Assembly: GCA_021772845.1 (NCBI GenBank)
Contig: JAJFLF010000038.1
Coordinates: forward strand, 1 to 33,998
Direction of reading: 5' to 3'
DNA: 33,998 nucleotides
Origin: Mariprofundus sp.
Lineage (GTDB): Bacteria; Pseudomonadota; Zetaproteobacteria; Mariprofundales; Mariprofundaceae
The position numbers and the translations under genes are program-made. Under the pieces are notes generated by a model. That model made no database searches, was not told the DNA's origin, and saw only the letters and a program-made list of their open reading frames with translations. Below are positions 19,923-33,973 of the stretch, piece after piece (position 1 is the first letter of the stretch; each line of letters starts with the position of its first letter).

Positions 19923-20270
19923 TTATTTAGAAGCCTGTGATTTCAGCCAGTCGATAATATCCTTGCGATCACGCTCAGAGAGCGGTGTCATCACCATTTT
20001 GGTATTCGCTTTGATGCGCCGGGGATTCATTATCCAGGCATCGAGGGATATCTCATCCCATACATCAAAAGGCACACCGACAATCGTTGGTGCTTTGCCA
20101 TATACACCAGCCAAAGTTGGCCCGACCTTGATATGTTTTATATTCATATGATGGCATGGTCCACAACGCACATCGGCAACCACCTTGCCACGCAAGGCAT
20201 CTGCATGCGCAGACAGTGACGAAACGAGTAGTAAACTACTCAGCAGGAGTGCTTTCAGGGGCCAGAGCAA
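19923..20270 (-). CDS. Periplasmic class I (c2-like) monoheme cytochrome c
   Basis: Signal peptide (AHA-D), CGPCH, KVGPTLAGVYGK, W...NP...NTKM axial Met; TTG start. Confidence 0.9.
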   Translation of the reverse strand: MLWPLKALLLSSLLLVSSLSAHADALRGKVVADVRCGPCHHMNIKHIKVGPTLAGVYGKAPTIVGVPFDVWDEISLDAWIMNPRRIKANTKMVMTPLSERDRKDIIDWLKSQASK

Positions 20271-20625
20271 AATTCACTTCTCCATGTTTACCATGATAAC
20301 GTAAGCGCACATGCAATCGGTCAGCATGAATATCATTTACTAACAATGCACGGCGATAAATCCCCAGCGCACCATCGGGTATGGCCTGTTTCCATTTCGA
20401 ACTATCGGTGCGAATATGCACCAGTAGATCGGGGATATGACGCCTACCTTCCCGATTCACCACGATTAAAAACTCATTCATGCCCTGACGTACGGATTCA
20501 GGACGCGTTTCAAAATGAATCGTAAATTCATCCCAGACTTGCGGCTCAGGTGTCCAGCCGGGTTCAGATGACGAGCAAGCTGACATCAACAGCAGCAACA
20601 TCATCGCAAATAATTTATTCTTCAT
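20236..20625 (-). CDS. Lipoprotein, possibly YtkA/FixH-like Ig fold
   Basis: Lipobox LLMSA-C; beta-rich sequence with PDGALGIYR; translationally coupled in the cluster. Confidence 0.55.
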   Translation of the reverse strand: MKNKLFAMMLLLLMSACSSSEPGWTPEPQVWDEFTIHFETRPESVRQGMNEFLIVVNREGRRHIPDLLVHIRTDSSKWKQAIPDGALGIYRRALLVNDIHADRLHVRLRYHGKHGEVNFALAPESTPAE

Positions 20626-20951
20626 GGTTGCACATCCTGTTGGGCATGGTTCTGCAAATAAGCCAATACTTGCTGTTTTTCTATATCAGTCATCTTAGGC
20701 AAAGCCCTTTTTTCACGATGTCGCAGCATTCGGTTCACCGTACTCATCCATTGCTGGGCTGTATGAATATTCGGCATCGGTGGACGATGGCAGCTCGAAC
20801 ACTGCTTAGCAAACTGTTTAAAACCTTCTGACTGTTGATCGGGATAAATATTTTTGGAGTGCTGCACTGAACGACTTGGATCATCACTACAGGCAGAACA
20901 AAAAAACAGTAATAACAATAGACAGGCGAAATTACTTTTTGTCATCACCAT
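20622..20951 (-). CDS. Small monoheme cytochrome c, probable lipoprotein
   Basis: FCSA-C lipobox-like signal, CSSCH, PxPxxHTAQQWxxxVxRM. Confidence 0.85.
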   Translation of the reverse strand: MVMTKSNFACLLLLLFFCSACSDDPSRSVQHSKNIYPDQQSEGFKQFAKQCSSCHRPPMPNIHTAQQWMSTVNRMLRHREKRALPKMTDIEKQQVLAYLQNHAQQDVQP

Positions 20952-21327
20952 CTTCTATCTGATCGATCCCTTCTTCTTTATCTATCTCTTCATCATTGGA
21001 GCCATACATTGCAGTCATAAAATAAACAAAACCGCCAAACACAATAACATAGGCCAATGCACCTACATGGCCCCAAGTAAACCATTCACGTGGACTATCT
21101 ACCCGGTCTCCCCAAAAAGGAACCGTCAGGCCATAAGCGATCAGCAGCATCACAACAAGAATTGCTAAAAACCACTTGGGTACGCGTTTGGATGATTCCA
21201 AACCTGAACCACTGGCAATGATTTCATCATCAGTCATACCTACTTTCTTTTTTTTCGCAGGTCTCGACTGACCACCTCCGAACAGGCGTTCGTTCTCTTT
21301 ATCAATTTCATCTTGTTTTGAACTCAT
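20932..21327 (-). CDS. Two-TM membrane protein, short paralog of the 227-aa CcoP-N-like subunit
   Basis: GAGGAG RBS; two TM helices; motif matches to 28910..29593 by manual alignment. Confidence 0.75.
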   Translation of the reverse strand: MSSKQDEIDKENERLFGGGQSRPAKKKKVGMTDDEIIASGSGLESSKRVPKWFLAILVVMLLIAYGLTVPFWGDRVDSPREWFTWGHVGALAYVIVFGGFVYFMTAMYGSNDEEIDKEEGIDQIEDGDDKK

Positions 21328-21362
21328 TTGGATATTCTCCTCATATCAGCTCTCTATCTGTT

Positions 21363-22661
21363 TCATTTGCCTTCGGAAAAATAGACCACTTTAAATGATT
21401 TTTTCCAACCATCGTCACTCTCGGCATGCACAGTTAAACGATGCAACCCTTTTTCAAGATCCTGCGAGAAATGCAGCATCACATCTTTACGTTCTGCATT
21501 TTCTATCACCACATCAGTTTGCTCCAGGCGATACATGGATGCAGGCATACCTTCGACCACAAGATGTAATTGGGTCGGCTGGTAACGTTTATTAGCAATA
21601 TTGATGCGGTAATCCTGAGCTGTCATACCCGGCATCAATTGGGCACGATCGACAACCATAGAGTAGGGCTCATAACTGAAGATGCCCAATACAAAACAGA
21701 AAGCGCCGACAAGCGTAACTGCCCCGGCAGTTTTCGTGCGCGATAACAGAGAGCCCAAATTACTCTTCTCTCCCGATTCACCAAATGCGAAAGACAACAA
21801 ACCAGGCCCTTTCATTTTCTTACTTTTACTATGCAAATGATCACATGCCGCTACACAATCACCACAATTAATGCAGCTATCAAATACCAAAGTCTGACGA
21901 GGATCAATATCCAGAAAACAGCTATCTTCACAATAGGTACAATTCAGACAGTGATCACTACGGCTTTCATCATATGCGATATGTAAGGTATCACGGGTTT
22001 TAAACGAATGTTGCCAGATACGGTAAATACACATGTACTTACACACCAGATGTCGCATCACGCTCGCATCCACAAGCACTACCAAAATACATACACTATA
22101 AATCCACAATAGGTTCTCTGCATCTGGCACAGGCTGAAGAATCAAAAATGACCAGATCACGTCCGGTGGGAAAAAGTAAAGCAGTGGAATAATCGCAAAC
22201 AACATCGATACCAGTATGAATGCGATCGCCAGCAGGATTTTATTCATCCAGGCATCTTTACGTCGTGCCACCTGCATCTTCAGGCCGGTCACATCCATCA
22301 TCAGTGCCCGTCTTCCCAGCAATTTAGCCGTCAAGGTATTGGCCCATTCCGATATTGTGTTCTGTGGGCATACCCAACCGCAAAAAACAGAGCCTGCCCA
22401 CGAGTACATAAAAATAAGCCCGGTGGCGACCATTAGCCAAAAACCCATAACAATAAAAATATCTGAGAACCAGACCTGATAATCGAGCAATCGGAAAGCT
22501 CCAGCCATAGGATCAATACGGAACAGACCAGTCACTGGAATCAACACAAGCAGTAAAATTACCAGATATTGAGAGGCACGCCGCCAGACGCGCACCGATT
22601 GCGCCCCCGGCACATGCTCTTCTCGTATTGAAATGTTTTTTAACTGTTCCTGTGCGTTCAC
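21363..22661 (-). CDS. ccoG: CcoG/FixG/RdxA-family 4Fe-4S membrane protein
   Basis: FCGWVCPQ, CKYMCIY, CLNCTYCEDSC, CINCGDCVAAC and a C-terminal Ig-like domain (YRINIANK); GTG start. Confidence 0.8.
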   Translation of the reverse strand: MNAQEQLKNISIREEHVPGAQSVRVWRRASQYLVILLLVLIPVTGLFRIDPMAGAFRLLDYQVWFSDIFIVMGFWLMVATGLIFMYSWAGSVFCGWVCPQNTISEWANTLTAKLLGRRALMMDVTGLKMQVARRKDAWMNKILLAIAFILVSMLFAIIPLLYFFPPDVIWSFLILQPVPDAENLLWIYSVCILVVLVDASVMRHLVCKYMCIYRIWQHSFKTRDTLHIAYDESRSDHCLNCTYCEDSCFLDIDPRQTLVFDSCINCGDCVAACDHLHSKSKKMKGPGLLSFAFGESGEKSNLGSLLSRTKTAGAVTLVGAFCFVLGIFSYEPYSMVVDRAQLMPGMTAQDYRINIANKRYQPTQLHLVVEGMPASMYRLEQTDVVIENAERKDVMLHFSQDLEKGLHRLTVHAESDDGWKKSFKVVYFSEGK

Positions 22662-22717: not shown

Positions 22718-25306
22718 TCACAGGGCAGAATCGAAAGAACCTGTGCTATCATAAGGAGTAACACGCAAGAATCTCTCTCTGTATTGTTGCGCTGCTTTCA
22801 AATCCCCACGCCTGTTGAGTAAAACCACCATAGCCTTCAGAGCACCTTCATGATCGGCACGAATATCAAGAATTTTCTGCAATGCCTGCTCATGTGTCAT
22901 GTTCTGAGGTACGCCGTGCTCCAGACTGGCAAACATCGCATCGGCCAAAGCAAAACCTGCCCATCGATCATTCGGATTGGCACGATAAGCCAGCGACTGT
23001 AGTCGCTGCACGCCGGGTTTACCCTGCAACATTGCGATCTGGGCACGCTGACTCAATTCAGTTGCAGCCCATGCCCGCTTAAACGAAACCAGATCGGATT
23101 CGCTGACTGACCAGGCGCTGGCAGCCTCTCTGAAGGAGATACGACGCTCCATCAACCAGTCCATCAACTCAGGTAGAACATGCTCCTTATGGCGCATATG
23201 TGGCAGATCAAATTCAATCACCGGCGCCCATTCACCCTGCACCAGACCCGTCTCTGCATCATCAAGCAATCCGGATGCGCTACCCCAATAACGCCCTAAC
23301 CATGTCCAACCACCTTCGCCACCCCAGAGATCTGTAGCAGGTGCAGCAGAAACCAATGCGGCGGCACTATTATGCTGGCCCATAAAGCCGATCAGGCCAA
23401 GACGATACCCATCCACAAACAGTGCATTATTCGGAAACACCTGTGCAAAACTACGTAAAACAACCTGCATGGATTGCTTGTCGAATTGATTGAATGCCAG
23501 CCACTGCACAAACAGGCCGTTTTTTGTCAAATGCGCTTTGGCTCGTTGAAACTGCTCAAGCGAAAGCAATGCCCCACGGCCAACCATATCCGGATGAAAC
23601 AGATCACCGACAATCACATCGTAGAATTTCTCACTACGCATGAGAAAACGACGCGCATCATCGTTCTCAATAGTGATCTTTGAAGTCAGACCATCGTTAA
23701 CCTTATCAAAGTAGCTCTGAGAGGCAGTTATCGCACCCTGTGAGAGCTCAATGGCATATAACTTCGCATCTCGCCACGGCAATGCACCAGAGGCAGTAAT
23801 ACCGGTACCCAGACCTAGAAATAGTACGTTCTGAGCTTCAGCCTGCAAAAACATAGGCAGACGCGCCTGGTTTTTCTGTACTGCTACAGATGTCGGATCA
23901 CTGGATGCATCCATTCGTTGCAGATCAGCCAATAGAACACGCTGCCCATCCTGCCGCTCTACTACATGGGTAATAGAAATCGCATCTTCTCTCTGATACA
24001 GATCAGTGGATCGTGGCAATTCAGCTTGCAACAACGTCGATGCAGAAGGCAGCTGGTAGACAGGCCATGCCAATATAACAAAGGCTGATATGCTGAGCAG
24101 GATCATCTGCAACCGTCTGGTTCCCACCAGCCAATAACATCCACAGAGCATGACTAACGCCGCGGCAAGTAACCATGTGCCGGCAGTTCCCAGCCAAGGA
24201 ATCAGAACAAAACCAGCCAGCAATGCGCCAATACATGCACCTACACTGTTGGCTGCATACAGCGACGCACCTTCATCATTGTTGGCGATCAATGGTAACC
24301 ATGCCCCCAATGCCAGTGTTACCGGCAAGGTACAGGCCGCAATCAACATGCCTTGAAAAAGCAGAGCGCTAAAGAGTGAGTCAAATATTGCACGTTGACC
24401 CCAATCATTCACATATGGAAACAGATACAGACCGGCAATAGCAATCAATGCGACAAGCATCGGCAGCAGTTGCAACGCACGCACACGCGGCAGATGTTTT
24501 GCAACCACACTGCCCAAACCTATGCCTATCAAAAAAACTGCCAGTATCACTGCCAGTACATATTCCGTGCGTAAAAGGATCATGCCGTATGCTCGCGTCC
24601 ATGCAATTTCCAGCATCAGGGCACCTGCCCCCATACCGGCATAGGCAAATAACATACTTAGTTGAGGATATTGATGGCCTGCATGGACATGGCGATCAGC
24701 AACTTCTGTTTTAGCGTTGATCGACATCCAAAATAGCCCTAAACCGACTGTCACACCCAAGGCTGCGACCCATTGTAAGGATGTTAGCCAGCCAAACAGA
24801 GGCAATAGCAGCAATGGTAACAGTGCACCAAGCGCACCACCGATCGTATTAGCACCATATAGTGAACCCAAAGAAAGATTGAATGATTTACCGACACGAA
24901 GCATGGCAGGAAATGCAAAACCCAATGCCATAGCTGGCACACACAACACCCACAACGCCGTGGACATTTGCCAAAACTGCCATGTCTGCACATCATCAAC
25001 AGACAGCCACATGCCTTGCAGCCACTGCATCAAAAGTGGTAATAACAGGGCGTACGCGGCCACTGCAATTTCTATGCCGGCCAACAGACGCAATGTGTTT
25101 TTAATGGATGAGAACCAACGGCTCCCCATAAAGCTGCCGAGCCCAAGACCTAACATGAAAGCAGCAACCGTAATCACAACACCCAAAATACTGATGCCAA
25201 ACAACAGGCTCAGCATACGCGTCCAAAGCACTTCATATGCCAGCGCAGTTACACCCGACAATCCATACAGCAATAACAATATGGAAGCTTGTTTGGATGA
25301 ATTCAT
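22718..25306 (-). CDS. Fused multi-TM (MFS-like) / spermidine-synthase-like SAM-dependent transferase with helical C-terminal domain
   Basis: Duplicated TM unit (EVLWTR..LYGANTIG and EIAWTR..LYAANSVG), VLFLGLGTG, DDARRFL, YDVIVGD, GLFVQW. Confidence 0.88.
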   Translation of the reverse strand: MNSSKQASILLLLYGLSGVTALAYEVLWTRMLSLLFGISILGVVITVAAFMLGLGLGSFMGSRWFSSIKNTLRLLAGIEIAVAAYALLLPLLMQWLQGMWLSVDDVQTWQFWQMSTALWVLCVPAMALGFAFPAMLRVGKSFNLSLGSLYGANTIGGALGALLPLLLLPLFGWLTSLQWVAALGVTVGLGLFWMSINAKTEVADRHVHAGHQYPQLSMLFAYAGMGAGALMLEIAWTRAYGMILLRTEYVLAVILAVFLIGIGLGSVVAKHLPRVRALQLLPMLVALIAIAGLYLFPYVNDWGQRAIFDSLFSALLFQGMLIAACTLPVTLALGAWLPLIANNDEGASLYAANSVGACIGALLAGFVLIPWLGTAGTWLLAAALVMLCGCYWLVGTRRLQMILLSISAFVILAWPVYQLPSASTLLQAELPRSTDLYQREDAISITHVVERQDGQRVLLADLQRMDASSDPTSVAVQKNQARLPMFLQAEAQNVLFLGLGTGITASGALPWRDAKLYAIELSQGAITASQSYFDKVNDGLTSKITIENDDARRFLMRSEKFYDVIVGDLFHPDMVGRGALLSLEQFQRAKAHLTKNGLFVQWLAFNQFDKQSMQVVLRSFAQVFPNNALFVDGYRLGLIGFMGQHNSAAALVSAAPATDLWGGEGGWTWLGRYWGSASGLLDDAETGLVQGEWAPVIEFDLPHMRHKEHVLPELMDWLMERRISFREAASAWSVSESDLVSFKRAWAATELSQRAQIAMLQGKPGVQRLQSLAYRANPNDRWAGFALADAMFASLEHGVPQNMTHEQALQKILDIRADHEGALKAMVVLLNRRGDLKAAQQYRERFLRVTPYDSTGSFDSAL

Positions 25307-25346: not shown

Positions 25347-25772
25347 TTACAACAATCGATCTGGGTAGAACCAGACAAAAGCAACAACAGCATGGGCTAT
25401 CGCAAGGGTTGTAGCCAAACCGGCAGAAAGCACATGCCAGAGAAACACCTCTTTGCCAAATATACCCATCGCTACACCAAAACCTGCGGCCAGCAGAATG
25501 AGACACAACAGTGCACCACCCATCCAAAAAAGAATTTGATGTTTACGATTGGTGGAAATCGCACGTTCAGATGCCAGTTCCTTTTCCTGGTTAAACTCCC
25601 GCATCACATCAGCTGAATGTTCAAGTTCAACAGCAGTTTCTGATGTAATATTTCCATTAGCATTAGCAGCTGCAGTTGCAGCAACGGATACAGAAGCAAA
25701 ACCCAGACTCAACATCAGCAGACTCAAACAAAGAAAAAGGCTTTTACGCATCATTAACATCGTCACCTTCAT
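25347..25772 (-). CDS. Signal-peptide-bearing membrane protein with an H-x13-H helix
   Basis: Signal-like N-terminus, two TM helices, WHVLSAGLATTLAIAH; true start may be one of the downstream Mets (25760/25754/25751). Confidence 0.78.
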   Translation of the reverse strand: MKVTMLMMRKSLFLCLSLLMLSLGFASVSVAATAAANANGNITSETAVELEHSADVMREFNQEKELASERAISTNRKHQILFWMGGALLCLILLAAGFGVAMGIFGKEVFLWHVLSAGLATTLAIAHAVVAFVWFYPDRLL

Positions 25773-25977
25773 CTTTTTTCAAGGCATAGCGCCAATAGAG
25801 AAATACGGCTAGACCCATGGGTGCGAACACCATAAAAAACAAAAATACAAAAATAGTCCATGGGGTATCAATACTCACATGCAGATAGCGGTAACTATCC
25901 ATTGCCCAGGCAGGCATCGCCCAACACAGAGCAAGCGTTAGCAATATCATGCTTCTGATCTGTTTTAAGCCGTTCAT
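25744..25977 (-). CDS. Small signal-peptide plus single-TM protein
   Basis: AWA cleavage site then one TM helix and an acidic tail; GAGG RBS; ATGA overlap with the upstream gene. Confidence 0.78.
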   Translation of the reverse strand: MNGLKQIRSMILLTLALCWAMPAWAMDSYRYLHVSIDTPWTIFVFLFFMVFAPMGLAVFLYWRYALKKDEGDDVNDA

Positions 25978-27032
25978 GGTTTCACCTCATTAGGTTTGTT
26001 ACTGGATGCGCATCGGAATCCATAAAAATCGGATGCCATATTTGGCAAAGAATAATTACGATGATAACTCTCTGTTGAAAACGGGTCGCTTTTCCATGAG
26101 CCGCCACGCATTACCCGGTGTATAGTGCGTTCCACATCTTCACTGCCCGTACCGCTGAACTGATCAACTTCCGGTTGAAATGAAACCTGCTCGCCTTCAG
26201 CCACTTTATAGGGTTTAAATACGTCAAACACCCATTCCGTGACATTGCCCGCCATATCCATCGCACCATAAGGACTGGAACCATGTTCAAAATGGCGCAC
26301 ATCATTGGTGTGCCCAATGCTGTAATAGGTATTCAGACGGCTTACATCCATTTTATTACCCCAGGGCCAACGATTCGCCTTGGTTCCACGTGCTGCTTTT
26401 TCCCATTCAGCCTCTTGCGGCAGACGCTTACCTGCCCAAGCGCAATAATCCCGTGCATTATACCAGGAGACCAAGGTCACAGGGTGCTGTTCAAGGCCGC
26501 TCGGAATTTCACCATTGTCCCAGTTCAAGGGGGTGCGATACTGTTTGGCCACAACAAAATGAGCATATTGAGCTTGGGTCACCGGATACTTATCGATCCA
26601 GAATGCTGGCACATCAACCTGATGCGCTGGTCTATCTGTCTGATTACTGCGCACGGCATTGGTGCCCATTTCAAATCGACCTGCCTCAACAAAGACCATT
26701 TGGTCTAATTCTTTTTTAACGTCTGAACTCAACAGCGTTTTAAGTGATTCAATCGAGTAGGCTTGTTTATCGTTCTCGCGCGCCTCATGGGCTGCCTGTA
26801 TACGGATATCTTCACCGGCTGCACGAATATGATCCTCTACTTCAGCAATGTCATAGCTGACCTTTCCGCGCATCTCATCCATACGCATTGCGCCAAGCTC
26901 AATCACATGCAATGAACCACCAATCATGGCAGCAGCGACACAGGTTATTAGCACCGCCATTGCAAGGTTTTTACGTTTTTTTAACTCTTTTTCAGAAATG
27001 GGTTGTCGCGACATTGGATATTTATTTACCAT
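25974..27032 (-). CDS. Membrane-anchored formylglycine-generating-enzyme (SUMF1/NirV/PvdO-like) fold protein
   Basis: FWIDKYPVT, HPVTLVSW, GKRLPQEAEWEKAARG, DMAGNVTEW, RGGSW, GFRC; N-terminal TM anchor. Confidence 0.9.
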   Translation of the reverse strand: MVNKYPMSRQPISEKELKKRKNLAMAVLITCVAAAMIGGSLHVIELGAMRMDEMRGKVSYDIAEVEDHIRAAGEDIRIQAAHEARENDKQAYSIESLKTLLSSDVKKELDQMVFVEAGRFEMGTNAVRSNQTDRPAHQVDVPAFWIDKYPVTQAQYAHFVVAKQYRTPLNWDNGEIPSGLEQHPVTLVSWYNARDYCAWAGKRLPQEAEWEKAARGTKANRWPWGNKMDVSRLNTYYSIGHTNDVRHFEHGSSPYGAMDMAGNVTEWVFDVFKPYKVAEGEQVSFQPEVDQFSGTGSEDVERTIHRVMRGGSWKSDPFSTESYHRNYSLPNMASDFYGFRCASSNKPNEVKP

Positions 27033-27540
27033 TATCCCTGGGAATTATTTCAGAATCAGCTGGAGCATAATCCGCTGTACCCGGCAAATCCCATGTACCA
27101 TAGTATTTTTTCAGCAACAGCTCACCGATCACACCGCCAACTGCACAGAATTCCATATTTAAGATCACAAAGAATCCCCACCACATTAATGGGATCAATT
27201 TAGCGCCTTCTGGCGCTCCAGTGGTTGCTGTTAAATAATAGTTGATTGCAAGAATGATCAGAGGCGGGAAATGGGCGACTAACTTGCCTCCCCAGCCATA
27301 GATAAAACCAATGGCTATACCTGCAGTCACTGGCAGAGCAAACATTGTTGCTACCCAGGCCAGATCATACCCAGCTACACCCCAAAAGAGCTCTATGCGA
27401 ACATCGAACCACAAATTACCAAGTTCATATATTAAACCAGCTGCAAAGAAAGCGATTAAAAAGCGCTGCCATTTAGGTGCCCATGGTTGAGGTAATTGTT
27501 TTTGCATGTCTGAAGACTCCGTCAATGGATCTACAATCAT
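27022..27540 (-). CDS. Four-TM hypothetical membrane protein
   Basis: 172 aa, four hydrophobic segments, overlaps both neighbours. Confidence 0.8.
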   Translation of the reverse strand: MIVDPLTESSDMQKQLPQPWAPKWQRFLIAFFAAGLIYELGNLWFDVRIELFWGVAGYDLAWVATMFALPVTAGIAIGFIYGWGGKLVAHFPPLIILAINYYLTATTGAPEGAKLIPLMWWGFFVILNMEFCAVGGVIGELLLKKYYGTWDLPGTADYAPADSEIIPRDNGK

Positions 27541-28037
27541 TACTGATTGTTTTGTTTAGGGTAAGGGTTTCCTGTTAGTTTTTTGTACTCTGCGGCCTTT
27601 ACTTCTTCCAGATACCAATCTTTTACACGCAGACTTGAAAAATATTTAGCCATAAAACGGCGATCCTCTTCTGACAAGGAAGCATAAGAAGGCATCGCAT
27701 ATTTCGCTTTCAGGCGCGACGGAAGAATTTCCTGAGGATTATCTGCAGAAAAGTATTCATACAACCATTGTTCACTGCGCAATGAGCCAATACCATCAAG
27801 ATTTGGAGCAGGCACAGTTTCCATAATGTTTTTCACACCCCATAGGGAATGACAATCGCGACAGCCCATGTCACGATACATATCAGATGCTTTTGTTTGC
27901 ACTTCCTGGCTGGCCGTTGAATAAAATGGAATACCCTCATCCTTAACCGGATGAAATATATTATACGTACCTTTGCCTACAGCAAAGACTACAACCAGGC
28001 CAATTAGCCCCGCAATTAACCAATCACCTTTTCGCAT
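27540..28037 (-). CDS. Membrane-anchored monoheme cytochrome c with CcoO-like fold
   Basis: N-terminal TM, GCRDCH, APNLDGIG..RSEQWL, YAMPSY axial Met. Confidence 0.88.
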   Translation of the reverse strand: MRKGDWLIAGLIGLVVVFAVGKGTYNIFHPVKDEGIPFYSTASQEVQTKASDMYRDMGCRDCHSLWGVKNIMETVPAPNLDGIGSLRSEQWLYEYFSADNPQEILPSRLKAKYAMPSYASLSEEDRRFMAKYFSSLRVKDWYLEEVKAAEYKKLTGNPYPKQNNQ

Positions 28038-28040: not shown

Positions 28041-28298
28041 TTACTTAGAATCCTCGTACTGTTCGTTCAACAGTTCTGTACGACGATTTTCCTGCTTGGC
28101 AGTAGCTTCCTGATATTTTTTAAACTCTTCCGGACTCATTTTGTCCCGATCATTATCATCAAAAACAAGATATTTAATATCTTCATCAAACTGTTCGTTC
28201 TGACTTGCCCAACGTAGTCCAAATACCACGGCGATTAATATGGATGCTCCACTGACCAACCATATATAAATAGTCCAACCATCACCCCATTCAACCAT
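28041..28298 (-). CDS. ccoS: CcoS/FixS-like cbb3 oxidase maturation protein
   Basis: Single TM followed by WASQNEQFDED..LVFDD, similar to the CcoS WAxxxGQFDD...ILxDD motif; AAGGAG RBS. Confidence 0.7.
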   Translation of the reverse strand: MVEWGDGWTIYIWLVSGASILIAVVFGLRWASQNEQFDEDIKYLVFDDNDRDKMSPEEFKKYQEATAKQENRRTELLNEQYEDSK

Positions 28299-28327: not shown

Positions 28328-28645
28328 TTAAACAAGAAAACCATCTAACATTTGTACTGCTGCAAAAATAGCTGACACAATCACACCCAGTACAATCATT
28401 CCCATCAACACTTTTTCACCGGTTTTTACACTGCTCATATCTGTTTTCATATAAAACAGAGCAATCACACCAACAAACACAAGCATCGATATAATCATAA
28501 ATATGAAAATACCTATACTGTATTCCTGGCTACGCATACTTTCGATACCAAGATCAAATACCTGCTCTTCTGCCGCATGCGATAGACCTGTGGAGCAAGC
28601 AAGAGATGACGTAGCTAGTGTGATATAAGACAAGATTCTATTCAT
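28328..28645 (-). CDS. Signal-peptide plus two-TM hypothetical protein
   Basis: Start placed at ATG 28645 (MNRILS), because the longer TTG start lies in the terminator tail; SHA-AE cleavage site; two TM helices. Confidence 0.72.
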   Translation of the reverse strand: MNRILSYITLATSSLACSTGLSHAAEEQVFDLGIESMRSQEYSIGIFIFMIISMLVFVGVIALFYMKTDMSSVKTGEKVLMGMIVLGVIVSAIFAAVQMLDGFLV

Positions 28646-28697: not shown

Positions 28698-28727
28698 AAA
28701 AAAAATGCCGCCCAAAGGGCGGCATTT
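28698..28727 (-). terminator. Intrinsic terminator ending the core oxidase operon
   Basis: AAATGCCGCCC-TTT-GGGCGGCATTT, with the T run extending to 8 on the minus strand. Confidence 0.88.
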
Positions 28728-28748
28728 CATATTACGTATTGTGCTATA

Positions 28749-28883
28749 TCAGAACTGTCTATTGCGTGGATCTGGAGTACCTTTTTTATGGTTATCAATA
28801 AAGAAACTATAAAGAACTGGTACCAGCAGAGCAATTGCGATAATTCCAATGATAGCGATTTGTGCATTGTCCATATCAATCAT
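28749..28883 (-). CDS. 44-aa single-TM protein, CcoQ-like small subunit candidate (absent from ORF track)
   Basis: AGGAG-N7-ATG; MIDMDNAQIAIIGIIAIALLVPVLYSFFIDNHKKGTPDPRNRQF; lies between the CcoP-like gene and the terminator. Confidence 0.8.
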   Translation of the reverse strand: MIDMDNAQIAIIGIIAIALLVPVLYSFFIDNHKKGTPDPRNRQF

Positions 28884-28909: not shown

Positions 28910-29593
28910 TCAGTGTGCAACACTATGATCAGGCTTCCAATCGATTGGAGGAAGACGTTTCACAGCAATAATAACGGCAACACAGAAGCCAAAGAACCAC
29001 CAGATCGCAGCCTCATAACCTTTATCCCACCATGGCTGTTTCTTTTCACGGGTACCATCAGCTTTGTAGACACCTTCAAAGTTAGCCAACACAATATCCG
29101 CACCAATGATTGTGTACTCTTCTAGATCAACTCCTGGCTGCTGCTGCAACTCAACTAGCTGATCTTCCATAATACGCAGGTCACTCATAGTGATCGGGTG
29201 CTGTGTGCGTTGAAATTCATACTTGGACGGGAACTCAGCCAATGCTTTTTCAATCATTGCCATTGCTCTTTCATCAGCTTCTTTCGAAGTTAATGTAGTA
29301 TCATTCAAGACACGCTGTACAGGATCAGATTTATAAACCCCGATGTAATCAGCATAGATTGCTGCAGTAGCTCTCTGACCAAACAGAGGGAACGTCCAAG
29401 CCATCGCTGTCAAGAAGGTCAGAAGCAACAAACCAACAACCGGGCGTGGAAGAGGATTATTATTTTCTGCAATCCCACCCAAACTTTCATTTTCCCAGAT
29501 GTGTTTCGCATCTTCAATCATCTTGTCATCAGACATAGTCTTAAGTGGACTACCAAGCTTCAAGCCATCAAATAATGGTAAATATTTAGACAT
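28910..29593 (-). CDS. Heme-less two-TM subunit with a CcoP/FixP N-terminal-like motif
   Basis: HIWE..GGIAENNNPLPR plus TM helix resembles the CcoP H.WDGIEExDNPLPRWW motif; no CxxCH; follows ccoO. Confidence 0.78.
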   Translation of the reverse strand: MSKYLPLFDGLKLGSPLKTMSDDKMIEDAKHIWENESLGGIAENNNPLPRPVVGLLLLTFLTAMAWTFPLFGQRATAAIYADYIGVYKSDPVQRVLNDTTLTSKEADERAMAMIEKALAEFPSKYEFQRTQHPITMSDLRIMEDQLVELQQQPGVDLEEYTIIGADIVLANFEGVYKADGTREKKQPWWDKGYEAAIWWFFGFCVAVIIAVKRLPPIDWKPDHSVAH

Positions 29594-29606: not shown

Positions 29607-30551
29607 TTATTTCAAGTTCATTACGAAATCCATCAAATAACGGATTTCGGAATCATCTGCGTATTCAGGAACTTCTGGTGGATAAACACTTTCACCATCA
29701 CGGTATGCTACAAACTCTTCATCCCATTTAGCCAGATCAATATCGTTACCGGCTTTGTCTTTAGGGCCCCACAGGTAATCATAACGCGGCATGATTGAAT
29801 GTGGCTGAACCAGACGTGGGTTAAAGAAGTGCAATGTCATCCATTCAACAGATGAGTTGCGTGAAGCTACGTGCAATAGATCCGGTGCTTTACGGTCAGA
29901 ACCAAACGTAGTTGGAGACTCACCATTGAAATCACCTAGAACTGGAGGTCGACCAAATGACTGCCAGTCATGTGTCTGCTCAGGCAGTAGTGTATGACAC
30001 CACCAGCAACCCTCACGAACGAACATTGTTTTACCAGCACCCGCAAGGATGGTTTCAGATGCCGCATTCAATGTTGCATCAACACCCCAGCCACGTGTAG
30101 CTGTTGCAAATTCAACATAAGGTGTTTCAACACCATTTGTCACTTTAGAGCTCACAAGGAAAACACCACCAGTAGCTTCTGCTGCCTGGTCCATTTTACC
30201 CATAGAAACACTCAACGCCTGAACTTTTTCGCCCAGGATGTTGTCATGCTTCAAGCCACTTGGAAAAGATGTTCCCGCTGTAAACACATATGCTGCAGTT
30301 TCGTCCATCTTAGCGCCTGTAACCGGATTCTTTTTCAAGATCACTTTTACAGGTTTATCAGCTCCATGCAGGAACAGATCGCCGTAGGTAAACCCACTAT
30401 TCCTACCATAGGTTAACTGTTTTTCTAATGCTGTAGCAGTAGATGATACACCTGAAATATCTAAACTAGGCATATACATTGTAATTACCATGGATGACGA
30501 CAACGCCACACCAAAAAGAATCGATCCAACTCGGTACTCTCGGAATCCCAT
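29607..30551 (-). CDS. ccoO: cbb3-type oxidase monoheme subunit II with a long insertion
   Basis: GKTMFVREGCWWCH, GSDRKAPDL, HFFNPRLVQPHSIMPRYDYL; GGAGGAG RBS. Confidence 0.9.
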   Translation of the reverse strand: MGFREYRVGSILFGVALSSSMVITMYMPSLDISGVSSTATALEKQLTYGRNSGFTYGDLFLHGADKPVKVILKKNPVTGAKMDETAAYVFTAGTSFPSGLKHDNILGEKVQALSVSMGKMDQAAEATGGVFLVSSKVTNGVETPYVEFATATRGWGVDATLNAASETILAGAGKTMFVREGCWWCHTLLPEQTHDWQSFGRPPVLGDFNGESPTTFGSDRKAPDLLHVASRNSSVEWMTLHFFNPRLVQPHSIMPRYDYLWGPKDKAGNDIDLAKWDEEFVAYRDGESVYPPEVPEYADDSEIRYLMDFVMNLK

Positions 30552-30624: not shown

Positions 30625-32031
30625 TTAACGTGCGTACGCGATATCCTGTGGCTGTAGACCTTCAGGTAGTTTTTCACCTACTTTCACAGTCATGTACATA
30701 TTGTACAACCATACGAAGTTACCTAGGAATACCATTGTACCACCCAACCATCTTACGATCATGTAAGGATGCTCAGCAATCACGATGTCCATGTATGGAA
30801 CTTCGTAGATCTTACCAGCGCCCTGAATCAGACCAGCGATAGTCATAGATACCCAGTACAAAGAGAAGCCGATCAACAACATCCAGAAGTGGAAGTTAGC
30901 CAAGCTCAATGAATACAGCTTACGACGTGCGATTGTCTGAATACCGTAGTAGACAGCAGCCGCTTCCGCGAACGTTGAGAAACCAAGCAATGCCAAGTGA
31001 GCATGTGCAACGATCCAACCAGTACCATGTACATACCAGTTAATTGCACGTGTCTGCTGGAAACCACCCTGCATATTCAATGGGGTTGCCAACAACACAC
31101 CAGTAATTGTGTATTTGATTTCAACGTTTTCAACAAACATTGCCCATTTACCCTGCATAGTCAGAAGAATGTTACATACGTATGCAACAGCTGGAACCAG
31201 AATCAATACACCTTCAACAGATGCGAATGATTTTAGCCATTCTGGCAGTGGAGAACTCATCAGGTGATGTGCAGCTGGAGTTGAGTAGAACACAACGATT
31301 GACCAGAAGTGCAAGTGACCAACACGATGTGAATAGAGTGGGTTACCCGTTACTTTAGGAACAATGTAGTATGTGATCGCTGCAGCAACTGGAGTAATCA
31401 ATAGACCCAGTACGTTATGTGCGAACCACCATGTCATGTACGCTTCGTTCAAACCGGTTAAGTGGAAGAACTCAGGTGCATTACCGATCAGGAACACAAT
31501 GATAAGCATGAAGAACGAGCCGGCGAAGAACCAGTTCGTTGTATAAATACCCTGTGTACGACGAGTAACGATAGACATGAAGATGTTAATGAACAGTGGC
31601 AACACCATCGCCAATGCAATGAACAAATCGATTGGCCAGATGAAGTCAGAATACTCACGACCTGAAGTCATACCGAACCATAGTGTAGCCAAACCAAGAG
31701 CAAGGCCGACGTTCCACAACATACAGTTCCAGACACCGAGCTTCTCAGACCACAACTTAGTGTTACCCAACTGTGGAACAACATACATCGCTGATGCAGC
31801 AAACGCACCTACGATCCAACCAAAAATTACAGCGTGAACATGCACCTGGCGCATGTGGCCAAACTGTAGAGCGTACAAATGTGTGAACCAATCCGGGAAC
31901 GCTAATTTAGCTGCGTTGAATGAACCGATCCCCGTACCAATAATAAACCACATAATCGCCGAAAAACTGAAGAAGATTGCTGCAGTACCGCCAGGAATAT
32001 CCTTCTCTTTCGCAAACAGATATTTAATCAT
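30625..32031 (-). CDS. ccoN: cbb3-type (C-family) heme-copper oxidase catalytic subunit I, divergent
   Basis: FGHMRQVHVHAVIFGW, REYSDF, WWFAHNVLG, HFWSIVVFYSTPAAHHL (C-family Tyr plus HH), WIVAHAHLALLG. Confidence 0.93.
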   Translation of the reverse strand: MIKYLFAKEKDIPGGTAAIFFSFSAIMWFIIGTGIGSFNAAKLAFPDWFTHLYALQFGHMRQVHVHAVIFGWIVGAFAASAMYVVPQLGNTKLWSEKLGVWNCMLWNVGLALGLATLWFGMTSGREYSDFIWPIDLFIALAMVLPLFINIFMSIVTRRTQGIYTTNWFFAGSFFMLIIVFLIGNAPEFFHLTGLNEAYMTWWFAHNVLGLLITPVAAAITYYIVPKVTGNPLYSHRVGHLHFWSIVVFYSTPAAHHLMSSPLPEWLKSFASVEGVLILVPAVAYVCNILLTMQGKWAMFVENVEIKYTITGVLLATPLNMQGGFQQTRAINWYVHGTGWIVAHAHLALLGFSTFAEAAAVYYGIQTIARRKLYSLSLANFHFWMLLIGFSLYWVSMTIAGLIQGAGKIYEVPYMDIVIAEHPYMIVRWLGGTMVFLGNFVWLYNMYMTVKVGEKLPEGLQPQDIAYAR

Positions 32032-32082: not shown

Positions 32083-32190
32083 TCAATCATCATGCTCTTC
32101 GTCATGCTGACCTGGCATTAACAAATACCATGCAAACCACATGCTTGAGAACGCCAATATAATACCCAATACTGATGCAAAACCAGCCAT
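32083..32190 (-). CDS. 35-aa single-TM protein with His/acidic tail (absent from ORF track)
   Basis: GGGAGAG RBS; MAGFASVLGIILAFSSMWFAWYLLMPGQHDEEHDD; directly upstream of ccoN. Confidence 0.8.
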   Translation of the reverse strand: MAGFASVLGIILAFSSMWFAWYLLMPGQHDEEHDD

Positions 32191-32218
32191 ATTACTCTCC
32201 CTAACCTAGATTTATTTA

Positions 32219-32482
32219 TTAATCTTTCTGATAGCCTTCGTTAACCGCATGCAATTTAAGCGCTGTTGCAAGAATCCAAACGAATCCAAGACCAAACACA
32301 ATCATTACCCAGTTGCCGAAACCTTCAAATGTGAACGGCGAATACGCATCCGAACCCCATAAACCAGCCTCAGGAAACGGTCCGCGACCCACTGCCAATT
32401 GAGTGGCAATGGTAAATACAGAGCCATTACCCATTCCAGTAACGAAACCAGCAACGATTATTAACCATATTGAATTTTTCAT
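32219..32482 (-). CDS. 87-aa membrane protein, first gene of the oxidase operon
   Basis: GGGAGAGG RBS; two hydrophobic segments flanking a Gly/Pro-rich loop. Confidence 0.8.
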   Translation of the reverse strand: MKNSIWLIIVAGFVTGMGNGSVFTIATQLAVGRGPFPEAGLWGSDAYSPFTFEGFGNWVMIVFGLGFVWILATALKLHAVNEGYQKD

Positions 32483-32528: not shown

Positions 32529-32556
32529 ACCTTATTGTCTTTCGACACGCTGTCAA
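32529..32556 (-). promoter_or_regulatory. Putative sigma-70 promoter of the oxidase operon
   Basis: Minus strand TTGACA-N16-TAAGGT, 46 nt upstream of the first ATG. Confidence 0.6.
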
Positions 32557-32624
32557 GCCCATAAATGGATCATGGTTTCTTTTATCGCTATTGCCAGTTC
32601 GTCAAATTTGTTCATGATTCAGCC

Positions 32625-32819
32625 ATGCGTGAAATACTTATTTATGGCATCAGTGGATGCGCTTCTCTCTTTATTCTGGGCTACACCGTACACATCTTCA
32701 TTGGCGGCTTGGTTGACGAGCAAACAGAACTTATCAGCATCATTGTCGCAGTCTGCCTGGGTGCACTGCTTGTAGGCTGGATGGCCTGGGACATCTTAAG
32801 AAGTCGACGCCTTAAATAG
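32625..32819 (+). CDS. Small two-TM hypothetical protein, divergently transcribed
   Basis: MREILIYG..GYTVHIFIGGLV..WMAWDILRSRR; start at ATG 32625 preferred over 32565; followed by a bidirectional terminator. Confidence 0.7.
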   Translation: MREILIYGISGCASLFILGYTVHIFIGGLVDEQTELISIIVAVCLGALLVGWMAWDILRSRRLK

Positions 32820-32880
32820 AACCTGGATCCGGCAAGCGCCTGTGTCTGCAGAGTGTTAATAATTGGTTTAAAAACTGCAT

Positions 32881-32924
32881 AAAAAAAACACGCAGCACCT
32901 TATTTAGTGCTGCGTGTTTTTTTT
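32881..32924. terminator. Bidirectional intrinsic terminator
   Basis: A8-CACGCAGCAC-N8-GTGCTGCGTG-T8 between convergent genes. Confidence 0.92.
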
Positions 32925-32988
32925 AATAGCTGAGATGAATCAAACAGTTGCGCCATGCATATAAAACACTAGCACGACCCATGTATAA

Positions 32989-33459
32989 TTATTTATAGAA
33001 CTCCAGAGCCTTGCTCACAGCAGCATAATCTTCCGGAGTAAACTGCCCCTTATGAAACACATACTGCTGCTTTGCACCAGCATCATCCACACCAGTCAAA
33101 CCAAATGACTTACCTGCCTTATCAGAAAAGTAGCGTAGATTTTTCATCAACAGGCGACGCTTACCATTTTTAAGACGGAACGTAATTTGCTCTTTACGCA
33201 CATCCAGGGCCACCGGCACAGAAGGCAACAACAGCAAGCGACGGAAAATACGTCCACCACCAACCAGCAGGAAAAAGAAACCAAGGAACATCAAACCCTG
33301 GCCCATCCACTGATCGTCAGTCCCATACCAAACTTTCAAACCCCACAGAATCAGGAATAATACAGTCGGCACATAGAGTAAGAGGTCCCAGAAGATACCA
33401 GTCTTGTCGGGATGCAACTCACATGTAACTTCTCTCCACGACTTAGCCATCCTTGCCAT
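32989..33459 (-). CDS. Two-TM protein with soluble C-terminal domain, hypothetical
   Basis: 156 aa; GGGAG RBS; overlaps the upstream thioredoxin-like gene. Confidence 0.8.
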   Translation of the reverse strand: MARMAKSWREVTCELHPDKTGIFWDLLLYVPTVLFLILWGLKVWYGTDDQWMGQGLMFLGFFFLLVGGGRIFRRLLLLPSVPVALDVRKEQITFRLKNGKRRLLMKNLRYFSDKAGKSFGLTGVDDAGAKQQYVFHKGQFTPEDYAAVSKALEFYK

Positions 33460-33973
33460 CTCCCATCAGCCTCTTCAACACAGGCATCATTTCACTATAC
33501 AACATTCGACCCGGAGCAATGTGATGCACTTTGCCTTGACCATTAATCACAAACGTCCATGGCTCACCACGCACCTGAAAAGCATCATACGCCTCTGGAT
33601 TATAATATTGATCCATGTGCAGGAAGATTATCTGCTCTTCATACGTCTCCATCACCACTTTCAACATCTGTAACTGCTGATCACATTGCGTACAATGACC
33701 CGGCGTTGCAAACTCCATGATGATTGGCTTGCCTGTTTTCAACGCATCATCAAAAGATAACTGATACATACGAGGATCAGGATAACGATAACTGGTGATT
33801 TTGGACATATCACCACCAACATCAGCCAGTGTTTTTGTCCTTAGCGAAGGTACTTCCTGCCCAACAGTAAACACGCCGCCGCCACCAACACTAAAATCCA
33901 TATCACACGCAGCTACTAACAACAGAGGTGACATCAATAGCAGCAGGGCCAACCTTCTTAGATGAGACATCAT
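33443..33973 (-). CDS. Thioredoxin-fold lipoprotein
   Basis: Lipobox LVAA-C, GKPIIMEFATPGHCTQC (CxxC), cis-Pro motif GEPWTF. Confidence 0.85.
   Translation of the reverse strand: MMSHLRRLALLLLMSPLLLVAACDMDFSVGGGGVFTVGQEVPSLRTKTLADVGGDMSKITSYRYPDPRMYQLSFDDALKTGKPIIMEFATPGHCTQCDQQLQMLKVVMETYEEQIIFLHMDQYYNPEAYDAFQVRGEPWTFVINGQGKVHHIAPGRMLYSEMMPVLKRLMGDGKDG

What the first reader, a model, noticed from the sequence alone, without database searches (positions are those of the whole stretch)
19923..33973. Large non-canonical cbb3-type oxidase system (~20 genes) with its own apparent assembly and electron-delivery kit
Seen: co-oriented, mostly overlapping genes with a core unit (87 aa, 35 aa, CcoN, CcoO, 227 aa, 44 aa, terminator) and a 12-gene accessory arm. 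Established: canonical loci are ccoNOQP plus ccoGHIS. Here there is no diheme CcoP, no CcoI Cu-ATPase and no Sco (CxxxC) in the window. Instead there are three extra monoheme cytochromes, an FGE-fold protein, a TM/SAM-enzyme fusion and many orphan membrane proteins. Inference: a distinct high-affinity oxidase supercomplex and biogenesis pathway, plausibly the terminal branch of microaerobic Fe(II) oxidation. Divergent ('distal') cbb3 clusters have been noted in iron-oxidiser genomes, so the locus may be known while most of its components remain uncharacterised.
Basis: partly seen in the sequence, partly recalled or inferred. Interest (0 to 1): 0.85.

Follow-up and report, generated by a model that had tools for sequence, protein, structure and literature searches.

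The report
Distal cbb3 oxidase with haem-less CcoP
This is an already described, conserved gene cassette for a divergent oxygen-reducing respiratory enzyme of iron-oxidising and other rock-eating bacteria, in which one "orphan" gene is likely a haem-less form of the supposedly missing third subunit and the enzyme likely receives its copper without the usual dedicated copper pump.

Summary
The genes are real: 21 co-oriented minus-strand ORFs (arm of 13, not 12; 8 of 20 junctions overlap), continuing beyond the window. The locus is known: the "distal cbb3 conserved cassette" of Zetaproteobacteria, Gallionellaceae, Ferrovum and Tenderiales, listed gene by gene by Eddie et al. 2022; this scan also met it on another genome. 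Synteny is strong (55 of 62 testable beta/gammaproteobacterial loci in exact order). Several "orphans" map to known parts: the 227-aa protein is likely a haem-less CcoP (FixP_N in 40 of 61 homologues, channel-entry Glu kept, predicted docking on CcoN 0.74 vs control 0.00), 85 aa is CcoS-like, 432 aa CcoG-like, 129 aa YtkA/FixH-like. Not found in print: CcoI-type ATPase is absent from 24 of 24 near-complete relatives carrying only this oxidase but present in 26 of 27 with the canonical one; CcoN keeps all O2-reductase ligands but swaps E323→Q, Y317→A, S240→G in 101 of 101 copies. It is not iron-specific (nitrite oxidisers, thiosulfate growth), though cyc2 (17 of 80) and ACIII (29 of 80) often sit in the cassette. 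Known locus, untested biochemistry.

The parts
33443..33973 (-). Thioredoxin-fold lipoprotein (176 aa), H93-C94-x-x-C97, H119; likely periplasmic thiol-redox or copper-relay helper (inferred)
   Evidence: Pfam Thioredoxin E 3e-6; H93, C94, C97, H119, P138 in 46 of 46 homologues; last gene-but-one of the upstream cyc1 module
32989..33459 (-). Two-TM membrane protein (156 aa) with soluble C-terminal part; function unassigned
   Evidence: No Pfam/NCBIfam hit; always follows the thioredoxin gene
32880..32925 (-). Strong hairpin (20 pairs) with A/T tails on both sides; likely terminator separating upstream module from core
32219..32482 (-). 87-aa two-TM protein with invariant TGMGNGSVF; candidate small subunit or assembly factor
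   Evidence: 76 of 80 beta/gamma loci; directly upstream of ccoN in 63, moved next to cyc2 in 13
32083..32190 (-). 35-aa single-TM protein (CcoQ/CcoM-sized; homology not shown)
   Evidence: 76 of 80 loci; hhalign to CcoQ only 9.8% probability
30625..32031 (-). Distal-clade CcoN, catalytic haem b / haem b3-CuB subunit
   Evidence: COX1 E 1e-76, TIGR00780 246 bits (<583 cut-off); best PDB match 3mk7_A; ligands and substitutions; separate clade
29607..30551 (-). CcoO monohaem cytochrome with an extra ~125-residue periplasmic domain between anchor and haem domain
   Evidence: FixO E 5e-17 at 166-262; C182/C185/H186/M254 in 97 of 97; model pLDDT mostly 83-97 over 61-170; best Foldseek rows are CcoO chains
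28910..29593 (-). Likely haem-less CcoP: CcoP-type N-terminal motif with Glu43, TM1 (50-70), periplasmic domain, TM2 (193-212)
   Evidence: FixP_N in 40 of 61 members; E43 in 94 of 97, CxxCH in 0 of 97; register to P. stutzeri CcoP E49; predicted complex with CcoN 0.74 vs 0.00; model
28749..28883 (-). 44-aa single-TM protein, last gene of the core; candidate small subunit
   Evidence: 78 of 80 loci; hhalign to CcoQ 5.6%
28702..28728 (-). Intrinsic-terminator-like hairpin ending the core
28328..28645 (-). 105-aa (listed as 123-aa ORF to 28699) membrane protein, signal peptide plus two TM
   Evidence: 75 of 80 loci
28041..28298 (-). CcoS/FixS-like maturation protein (85 aa)
   Evidence: hhalign to canonical CcoS 94.4%, E 9e-8; FixS hits in 3 of 5 homologues scanned, below cut-off
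27540..28037 (-). Membrane-anchored monohaem His/Met cytochrome c (165 aa), CcoO-like; candidate electron-entry subunit replacing the CcoP haems
   Evidence: CxxCH in 91 of 91, M115 in 84 of 91; hhalign to CcoO 78%; 76 of 80 loci, moves together with the CcoS-like gene
27022..27540 (-). 172-aa multi-TM protein, invariant E50/E130/E140; unassigned
   Evidence: 1 chance-level Pfam hit in 12 homologues; 68 of 80 loci
25974..27032 (-). Membrane-anchored FGE-sulfatase-fold protein (352 aa); lacks a conserved active-site Cys pair
   Evidence: PF03781 E 1e-58; conserved C31, H42, M54, M122, H137, M228, H324, C341
25744..25977 (-). 77-aa small membrane protein with conserved DSYRxxHV
   Evidence: 63 of 80 loci
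25347..25772 (-). 141-aa membrane protein with two invariant His 14 residues apart; candidate half of a dihaem cytochrome b (inferred)
   Evidence: H113, H127 in 61 of 61 and 55 of 55 distant representatives; weak cytochrome b561 and DUF4079 hits in 9 of 61 each; Atlas gave no named family
22718..25306 (-). Fused ~12-13-TM / spermidine-synthase-like SAM-fold protein (862 aa)
   Evidence: NF037959 above cut-off; SAM-site residues T501, E520, D550, D568 and H571 in 69 of 69; in 37 of 37 near-complete distal carriers
21363..22661 (-). Divergent CcoG-like membrane ferredoxin (432 aa)
   Evidence: TIGR02745 121 bits (<317 cut-off); 12 Cys in 65 of 65; 23% identical to the canonical CcoG on C112, 47% to a copy on C299
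20932..21327 (-). 131-aa two-TM protein; unassigned
   Evidence: follows ccoG
20622..20951 (-). Monohaem cytochrome c lipoprotein (109 aa); variable member
   Evidence: DHC E 1e-4; 14 of 20 zeta loci, 5 of 80 others
20236..20625 (-). Lipoprotein (129 aa) with likely YtkA/FixH-type fold (CcoH-like)
   Evidence: Atlas features of homologue P0137: YtkA 83%/FixH 13% cluster at 0.93; hhalign to CcoH only 2.3% over 85 columns; no Pfam hit
19923..20270 (-). Soluble class I monohaem cytochrome c (115 aa)
   Evidence: Cytochrom_C E 3e-6; C36/C39/H40/M92 in 15 of 15

Best explanation
The cassette encodes a divergent cbb3-type (C-family) haem-copper enzyme that likely reduces oxygen to water, with a predicted core of CcoN, an enlarged CcoO and a haem-less CcoP, likely fed with electrons by separate cytochromes and likely loaded with copper without CcoI. 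Shown: CcoN keeps the six His ligands, the helix VII Tyr and most proton-channel residues; the 227-aa protein has the CcoP N-terminal motif and no haem site; CcoS-like and CcoG-like genes are in the arm; CcoI does not accompany this oxidase. Inferred mechanism: (1) protons enter through Glu43 of the 227-aa subunit, which is predicted to sit on the CcoN 231-235 loop as CcoP Glu49 does, into a remodelled channel (S240→G, Y317→A, new His235/His239/Glu356); (2) the two CcoP haems are outsourced to the anchored 165-aa cytochrome and the diheme Cyc1, so electrons from Cyc2 (Fe(II)), ACIII (quinol) or other donors converge on CcoO; (3) copper is reduced by the CcoG-like protein, exported most likely by a housekeeping CopA-type ATPase, and inserted with the CcoS-like, YtkA/FixH-like and HCxxC thioredoxin proteins standing in for CcoI/Sco; (4) the small TM proteins, FGE-fold protein and SAM-fold fusion are assembly or stabilising factors. 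It would serve as a constitutive general terminal oxidase of microaerophilic lithotrophs, not an iron-only branch.
For: Ligands: H64, H205, H255, H256, H343, H345, Y249, T213, Y221, H241, N287, E126 in 101 of 101 distal copies; no Glu at HxxxE. Haem-less CcoP: FixP_N in 40 of 61 members, all other families 1 each; E43 in 94 of 97; ungapped register with E22 of the genome's own CcoP, which aligns to residue 49 of 3mk7_C; predicted complex score 0.74, best of 3 controls 0.00, runs agree in at least 91% of contacts, partner pLDDT at least 78, mark reached by 116 of 157 solved and 2 of 215 mismatched pairs, E43 among the closest contacts to CcoN 231-232. CcoS-like: 94.4%, E 9e-8. Co-occurrence in 64 near-complete genomes: CcoI 0 of 24 distal-only (14 genera), 26 of 27 with canonical ccoN; no strong Sco hit in 13 of 37 distal carriers. 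Synteny: 14 of 20 zeta loci complete, 55 of 62 others in exact order; cyc2-motif gene in 17 of 80 and ACIII genes in 29 of 80 loci. Expression in ES-1 on both donors.
Against: No biochemistry found for this clade in 10 literature searches. The complex pass may reflect likeness to solved CcoN-CcoP structures, and my own alignments were used. FixP_N scores are under the curated cut-off and hhalign of the 227-aa family to zeta CcoP gave only 2.8% and picked a different segment. E323→Q, Y317→A and S240→G remove residues recalled as important in canonical enzymes, so activity or pumping may differ. The CcoI test detects only the FixI-type N-terminal domain; 3 of 24 distal-only genomes gave no CopA-type hit and 17 of 24 have Sco elsewhere, so the copper route is open. 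The 87- and 35-aa genes leave ccoN in 13 loci. Functional roles of the numbered canonical residues are recalled, not read here.
Confidence: 0.7

Rival explanations
1. The cassette is a dedicated Fe(II)-oxidation/electron-uptake supercomplex (Cyc2-Cyc1-ACIII-oxidase).
For: Carriers are largely iron oxidisers and electroautotrophs; cyc2-motif gene inside the cassette in 17 of 80 loci, ACIII in 29 of 80, both in 12; cyc1-like gene upstream in this genome.
Against: Present in Nitrotoga and Chromatiales MAGs; 227-aa gene not found in 25 of 64 near-complete Zetaproteobacteria, including two single-contig genomes; in ES-1 the proximal, not the distal, genes rise on Fe(II) (log2FC +1.2 vs -0.2/-0.3); no cyc2 found in this 71%-complete genome.
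Confidence: 0.3
2. The accessory arm is a fully self-contained, new copper-delivery pathway (SAM-fold/MFS fusion or 172-aa protein as copper transporter, 141-aa protein as a dihaem b electron wire from CcoG).
For: CcoI absent from 24 of 24 distal-only genomes; 7 of those also lack a strong Sco hit; 3 gave no CopA-type hit; the fusion is in 37 of 37 carriers; invariant His pair in the 141-aa protein.
Against: 21 of 24 have a CopA-type ATPase; the fusion's membrane part has only two conserved Met and no conserved Cys/His; cytochrome b hits are weak (9 of 61) and outnumbered by a nonsense family; Atlas named no family.
Confidence: 0.25
3. The enzyme is not a proton-pumping O2 reductase but a non-pumping O2 scavenger or an NO/nitrite-reducing haem-copper enzyme.
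For: Clade-wide loss of E323, Y317, S240 and gain of E273, E356; canonical cbb3 already has NO/nitrite activity (review passages); a copper nitrite-reductase-like gene is inserted upstream in one relative.
Against: Cross-link Tyr, three CuB His and channel T213/Y221/H241/N287 are invariant, no NOR-type HxxxE Glu; it is the only cbb3-type CcoN in 24 near-complete genomes; highly expressed in microaerobic ES-1 cultures.
Confidence: 0.12

Closest known systems
'cbb3-1/cbb3-2' region of Ca. Tenderia electrophaga and Tenderiales (Eddie et al., bioRxiv 10.1101/2022.05.06.490989; passages and figure legend read)
   Same: Same order: diheme cytochrome, monohaem cytochrome, truncated CcoN, thioredoxin, small proteins, CcoN, CcoO, unknowns, monohaem cytochrome, CcoG, monohaem cytochrome, second truncated CcoN; called 'a sort of alternative complex IV'.
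   Different: That paper leaves the gene after ccoO and most others unnamed; here they are assigned (haem-less CcoP, CcoS-like, YtkA/FixH-like, FGE fold, SAM-fold fusion). This genome's copy has no second truncated CcoN at the downstream end within the window.
'Conserved cassette' with distal CcoN in Zetaproteobacteria, Sideroxydans, Ferrovum (Field et al. 2015, not held; as cited in McAllister et al. 2020, PMC7029218, passages and one supplementary figure text); distal cbb3 of Ducluzeau et al. 2008 (not held)
   Same: Distal CcoN within a cassette with cyc1 and other cytochromes; co-exists with a proximal ccoNOQP locus; homologues named Mariprofundus, Sideroxydans and Ferrovum appear.
   Different: No difference of kind found; the papers seen treat CcoP as missing (Ullrich et al. 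2016, PMC4725956, passages, suggest co-localised cytochromes replace it).
Canonical cbb3 oxidase ccoNOQP with ccoGHIS (P. stutzeri 3mk7; R. capsulatus; C. jejuni, PMC8267372 passages)
   Same: C-family CcoN ligands and Tyr, monohaem CcoO, CcoP N-terminal Glu motif, CcoG-like and CcoS-like genes.
   Different: About 30% CcoN identity; CcoP has no haems and a second TM; CcoO has an extra domain; E323→Q, Y317→A, S240→G; no CcoI; about 12 additional conserved genes.

Membership tests
C-family (cbb3) haem-copper O2 reductase | [quoted passage not shown] | tested here: met
   H64, H205, H255, H256, H343, H345 in 101 of 101; register to 3mk7_A
C-family (cbb3) haem-copper O2 reductase | Cross-link Tyr on a different helix (VII) from the CuB His | tested here: met
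   Y249 = Y251 of 3mk7_A, 101 of 101; the covalent link itself not testable
C-family (cbb3) haem-copper O2 reductase | Single K-type proton channel residues | tested here: inconclusive
   T213, Y221, S234, H241, N287 kept; S240→G238 and Y317→A315 lost in 101 of 101; residue roles recalled
C-family (cbb3) haem-copper O2 reductase | Monohaem CcoO as subunit II, no CuA | tested here: met
   FixO E 5e-17; CxxCH and Met invariant
C-family (cbb3) haem-copper O2 reductase | O2 reduction with high affinity and proton pumping | not testable with these tools
   needs purified enzyme
Canonical (proximal) ccoNOQP-ccoGHIS | Diheme CcoP | tested here: not met
   0 of 97 homologues of the 227-aa protein have CxxCH; only the N-terminal motif is shared
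Canonical (proximal) ccoNOQP-ccoGHIS | Glu H-bonded to the haem b3 His (E323) | tested here: not met
   Q321 in 101 of 101 distal, E in 18 of 18 proximal
Canonical (proximal) ccoNOQP-ccoGHIS | CcoI Cu-ATPase | tested here: not met
   Not in window; PF12156 in 0 of 24 near-complete distal-only genomes
Canonical (proximal) ccoNOQP-ccoGHIS | CcoG and CcoS | tested here: met
   Divergent homologues, both below curated cut-offs
Canonical (proximal) ccoNOQP-ccoGHIS | CcoH and CcoQ | tested here: inconclusive
   129 aa: Atlas YtkA/FixH 0.93 but hhalign 2.3%; 35/44 aa vs CcoQ 9.8%/5.6%
Distal cbb3 'conserved cassette' (Field 2015; Eddie 2022) | Gene order cyc1 - monohaem c - truncated CcoN - thioredoxin - ... 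- ccoN - ccoO - ... - ccoG - monohaem c | tested here: met
   against the list
Distal cbb3 'conserved cassette' (Field 2015; Eddie 2022) | CcoN in the distal subtree | tested here: met
   25 cassette CcoN vs 18 proximal split at SH-aLRT 99 in a quick, unrooted tree; carriers match those named; Ducluzeau's reference sequences not included
Nitric oxide reductase (cNOR/qNOR) | Glu four residues after the first active-site His; no cross-link Tyr | tested here: not met
   H205-N-V-L-G209 and Y249 present; NorB match only E 2e-5; motif recalled
Spermidine synthase | SAM/dcSAM-binding loop and DxxD amine-binding motif | tested here: not met
   SAM-site residues kept, but D568-L-F-H571 has His at the second Asp position in 69 of 69; speE scores far below cut-off; motif recalled

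The most novel reading that the evidence does not exclude
The distal cassette is a second, independently equipped branch of C-family oxidases: a haem-less CcoP acts purely as proton-gate subunit, the proton channel and haem b3 proximal pocket are rebuilt (Q321, E273, E356, H235/H239), interchangeable cytochromes plug Cyc2, ACIII or other donors into CcoO, and CuB is inserted by a previously undescribed CcoI- and Sco-free route encoded in the arm, possibly with a homodimeric dihaem b wire (141 aa) and single-repeat 'mini-CcoN' haem chaperones.
Probability: 0.25. Interest if true: 0.75.

Novelty: already known. Interest (0 to 1): 0.45.

Why it matters
A 2026 review still calls the terminal oxidases of Mariprofundus 'of currently uncertain identity' (PMC13741234, passages), and this oxidase is the only cbb3-type CcoN in 24 of 64 near-complete Zetaproteobacteria and the more highly expressed one in ES-1. 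The cassette is in print, but its subunits were unassigned. Identifying a haem-less CcoP separates CcoP's two jobs (electron entry and proton gating) and gives a one-residue test (E43). The strict absence of CcoI, which is essential for canonical enzymes, makes copper insertion in this clade a concrete open question, and the clade-wide E323→Q / Y317→A changes are a natural experiment on C-family proton pumping.

Tried and rejected
Fold searches of the 227-aa model (Foldseek no E<=0.001; VIA best Z 5.9, helical only) and of the CcoO model (only cytochrome c domain matches, best Z 5.8; the extra domain was not searched alone) gave no named fold; this does not show the folds are new. Profile search of the 227-aa family against PDB sequences: nothing under E 0.2. 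hhalign of 19 cassette families against 7 canonical families: only CcoS, CcoO, mini-CcoN/CcoN and the two CcoO-like cytochromes passed 70%. Pfam scans of 87-aa, 172-aa and 129-aa homologues: no family. 141-aa family: 75 representatives, no convincing fused form; Atlas no named family. RNA runs: none was listed. FNR-like boxes upstream of the core: 13 of 91 vs background 48 of 1050, 1 of 16 for proximal loci; not pursued. Promoter scan below shuffle expectation (18 vs 28). cyc2 not found with motif or one query in this 71%-complete genome. The tree is the quick version, careful search unfinished, long branches flagged. Papers not held: Ducluzeau 2008, Field 2015, Barco 2015 and a PNAS paper on the proton entrance; their content is known only second-hand or recalled, and Ducluzeau or Field may already note the haem-less CcoP. 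bioRxiv supplements (Eddie et al. Table S4) were not seen and may carry further annotations. Searches for 'heme-less CcoP'/'truncated CcoP' with cbb3 found no paper holding those terms; searches for E383Q, E49/Y321/S244 and single-unit HCO homologues found nothing relevant. Rejected: artefact or chance ORFs (synteny); a spermidine synthase; a cNOR; an Fe-only role.

Full report
Observation. The span 19923-33973 holds 21 co-oriented minus-strand ORFs, flanked downstream by flagellar genes (flhB, flhA, flhF by sequence) and upstream by the contig end. The core (87, 35, CcoN 468, CcoO 314, 227, 44 aa) and its terminator-like hairpin at 28702-28728 are as described; a second hairpin at 32880-32925 cuts off the thioredoxin and 156-aa genes. 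The arm has 13 genes; 8 of 20 junctions overlap. Homologue names place the genome among Zetaproteobacteria. It is 71% complete and also carries canonical ccoNOQP-GHI on C112. Comparison with relative G086 shows that contig C267 continues the cassette upstream: diheme c4 (Cyc1-like, name by context), two opposite-strand lipoproteins, a monohaem cytochrome and a ~170-aa protein homologous to the last third of CcoN with the HxH motif.

Conservation. Of 133 genomes of the class, 70 have a CcoN at 76% identity or more and 57 a canonical one at about 30%. I fetched 20 of the 70 loci: 14 have the whole core and 13-gene arm in order, 2 end at contig ends, 2 have core only and 2 a partial arm in place. 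A genome-collection scan confirmed 349 of 377 candidate stretches and returned the best 80, biased to the betaproteobacterial first sequence: Ferrovum, Gallionella, Sideroxydans, Nitrotoga, Steroidobacteraceae, Burkholderiaceae, Chromatiales. CcoO and the 227-aa gene are in 80 of 80, the 44-aa in 78, the 85-aa in 77, the 87-aa, 35-aa and 165-aa in 76 (flanks limited to 10 kb). Nine genes from ccoN to the FGE gene are in exact order in 55 of 62 loci with enough downstream DNA. A quick tree separates 25 cassette CcoN from 18 canonical ones (SH-aLRT 99, unrooted, long-branch warning).

It is in print. Eddie et al. (bioRxiv 10.1101/2022.05.06.490989; passages and legend) list 26 conserved proteins in the same order and call it 'a sort of alternative complex IV'. 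McAllister et al. 2020 (PMC7029218; passages, supplementary figure text) state that only the distal CcoN lies in the conserved cassette of Field et al. 2015. Ullrich et al. 2016 (PMC4725956; passages) noted the missing subunit III in Ferrovum; Hoover et al. 2023 (PMC10734462; passages) find proximal or distal ccoN in most Gallionellaceae.

CcoN. Against 3mk7_A, all six His ligands, Y249 (=Y251), T213, Y221, S234, H241, N287 and E126 are present in 101 of 101 distal copies (kin, not independent), and there is no NOR-type Glu. Equally invariant are E323→Q321, Y317→A315, S240→G238, E125→D129, and gains H235, H239, E273, E356. From recall, E323 H-bonds the haem b3 ligand and Y317/S240 line the proton channel; I could not read papers on this.

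The 227-aa protein. It follows ccoO in every locus, has no CxxCH in 97 homologues and Glu43 in 94 of 97. FixP_N matches 40 of 61 members at E<=0.05 (best 9e-5, under the cut-off), every other family one member. Its motif at 39-50 aligns without gaps to the genome's own CcoP, whose E22 corresponds to residue 49 of 3mk7_C; E49 as channel entrance is recalled. Against this, hhalign to zeta CcoP gave 2.8% and chose a C-terminal look-alike segment. The model shows a TM hairpin (50-70, 193-212) around a periplasmic domain (pLDDT 85). The predicted complex with CcoN scored 0.74, best of 3 controls 0.00; runs agree in at least 91% of contacts, partner pLDDT at least 78; the mark was reached by 116 of 157 solved and 2 of 215 mismatched pairs; residues 41-46 touch CcoN 225-235. 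Likeness to solved CcoN-CcoP complexes may contribute. I conclude it is likely a haem-less CcoP.

Accessory genes. 85 aa is CcoS-like (94.4%, E 9e-8; FixS in 3 of 5 homologues). 432 aa is CcoG-like with 12 invariant Cys. The 129-aa lipoprotein resembles YtkA/FixH by language-model features of a homologue (0.93) but not by profile comparison (2.3%). The 165-aa cytochrome is CcoO-like (78%) and moves with the CcoS-like gene. The 862-aa fusion passes NF037959, keeps SAM-site residues and has His at the second Asp of the spermidine-synthase motif in 69 of 69. The 141-aa protein has H113/H127 in 61 of 61 and 55 of 55, a cytochrome b-like spacing by recall, with only weak support. The thioredoxin has invariant HCxxC and H119.

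Copper supply. Among the 64 genomes at least 90% complete and at most 5% contaminated: 24 distal-only, 13 both, 14 canonical-only, 13 neither. The CcoI-type domain PF12156 is in 0 of 24, 13 of 13, 13 of 14 and 1 of 13 (one distal-only genome also has a fused ~970-aa CcoN-like protein). Over all 133, 4 of 47 distal-only genomes have it, all 70-83% complete. Strong Sco hits (weak ones dropped) are in 17 of 24 distal-only genomes and missing from 13 of 37 carriers. CopA-type ATPases are in 21 of 24, two as partial hits. The fusion is in 37 of 37 carriers, 3 of 14 canonical-only and 1 of 13 neither; the 227-aa gene in 39 of 64, all 37 carriers plus two fragmented genomes. CcoI is essential for canonical enzymes (PMC8267372 passages). 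So this oxidase assembles without CcoI; whether through CopA or the arm is open.

Physiology. A gene with the Cyc2-defining motif (bioRxiv 10.1101/228056 passages; porin not verified) lies in 17 of 80 loci and ACIII-type genes in 29 of 80, both in 12. But the cassette is in Nitrotoga, missing from many Zetaproteobacteria, and in ES-1 distal ccoN/O are at the 97.8-99.5th percentile in long-term cultures on both donors, log2FC -0.2/-0.3 on Fe(II) vs thiosulfate at mid-log while proximal genes are +1.2 (PMC8788666 passages and supplement part 1). It looks like a constitutive oxidase for several lithotrophic donors.

Verdict. Real, conserved, already described as a locus, untested biochemically as far as 10 searches show. 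The additions here (haem-less CcoP, CcoI exclusion, clade-wide active-site changes) make it directly testable; interest 0.45.

Noticed in passing
G000:C267:2-436 (-); L005:1774-2283; second copies e.g. L011:17555-18067, L077:7695-8195: ~170-aa 'mini-CcoN' proteins matching the last third of CcoN with HxH kept (COX1 E 1e-17, weak DUF2871), paired with a CcoO-like monohaem cytochrome; many cassettes carry two paralogues. Could be single-repeat haem-copper-oxidase units that oligomerise or chaperone haem. Noted as 'truncated CcoN' by Eddie et al.
   Followed up: partly
L039, L040, L043, L045, L046, L050, L052, L058, L062, L069, L071, L090: Soil Steroidobacteraceae-type gammaproteobacterial MAGs carry ACIII genes, the distal oxidase cassette and a cyc2-motif gene in one co-oriented block; the 87- and 35-aa genes are moved from ccoN to just upstream of cyc2. 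Suggests unrecognised soil iron oxidisers and a link of these two small proteins to Cyc2.
   Followed up: partly
window 29607-30551, residues ~40-165: Confidently modelled extra periplasmic alpha/beta domain in CcoO with conserved H102; no fold match when searched as part of the whole model.
   Followed up: partly
G000:C299:447-1799 (-): A second distal-type CcoG-like gene (47% identical) elsewhere in the genome, upstream of a MotA/ExbB-like ORF by eye.
   Followed up: no
L072:7818-9257 (-), L087:3844-5289 (-) and 17 other loci: A conserved ~480-aa multi-TM protein with no NCBIfam hit lies on the opposite strand in or beside the cassette in 19 loci.
   Followed up: no
L068:8516-9277 and 8 other Gallionella-type loci: An Fnr gene (above NCBIfam cut-off) sits directly upstream of the core.
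   Followed up: no
L015:16097-18274: A copper nitrite-reductase/multicopper-oxidase-like gene and two cytochromes are inserted between the upstream module and the core in one relative.
   Followed up: no
L121:2497-5409 (G015; similar in G019): A ~970-aa fused CcoN-like protein, distant from both proximal and distal clades.
   Followed up: no
window 1-19676: Ordinary housekeeping block (tsf-pyrH-frr-uppS-cdsA-dxr-rseP-bamA-skp-lpxD-fabZ-lpxA-lpxI-lpxB, + strand) and flagellar genes (fliA, flhG, flhF, flhA, flhB, - strand), named from the translations by recall.
   Followed up: no
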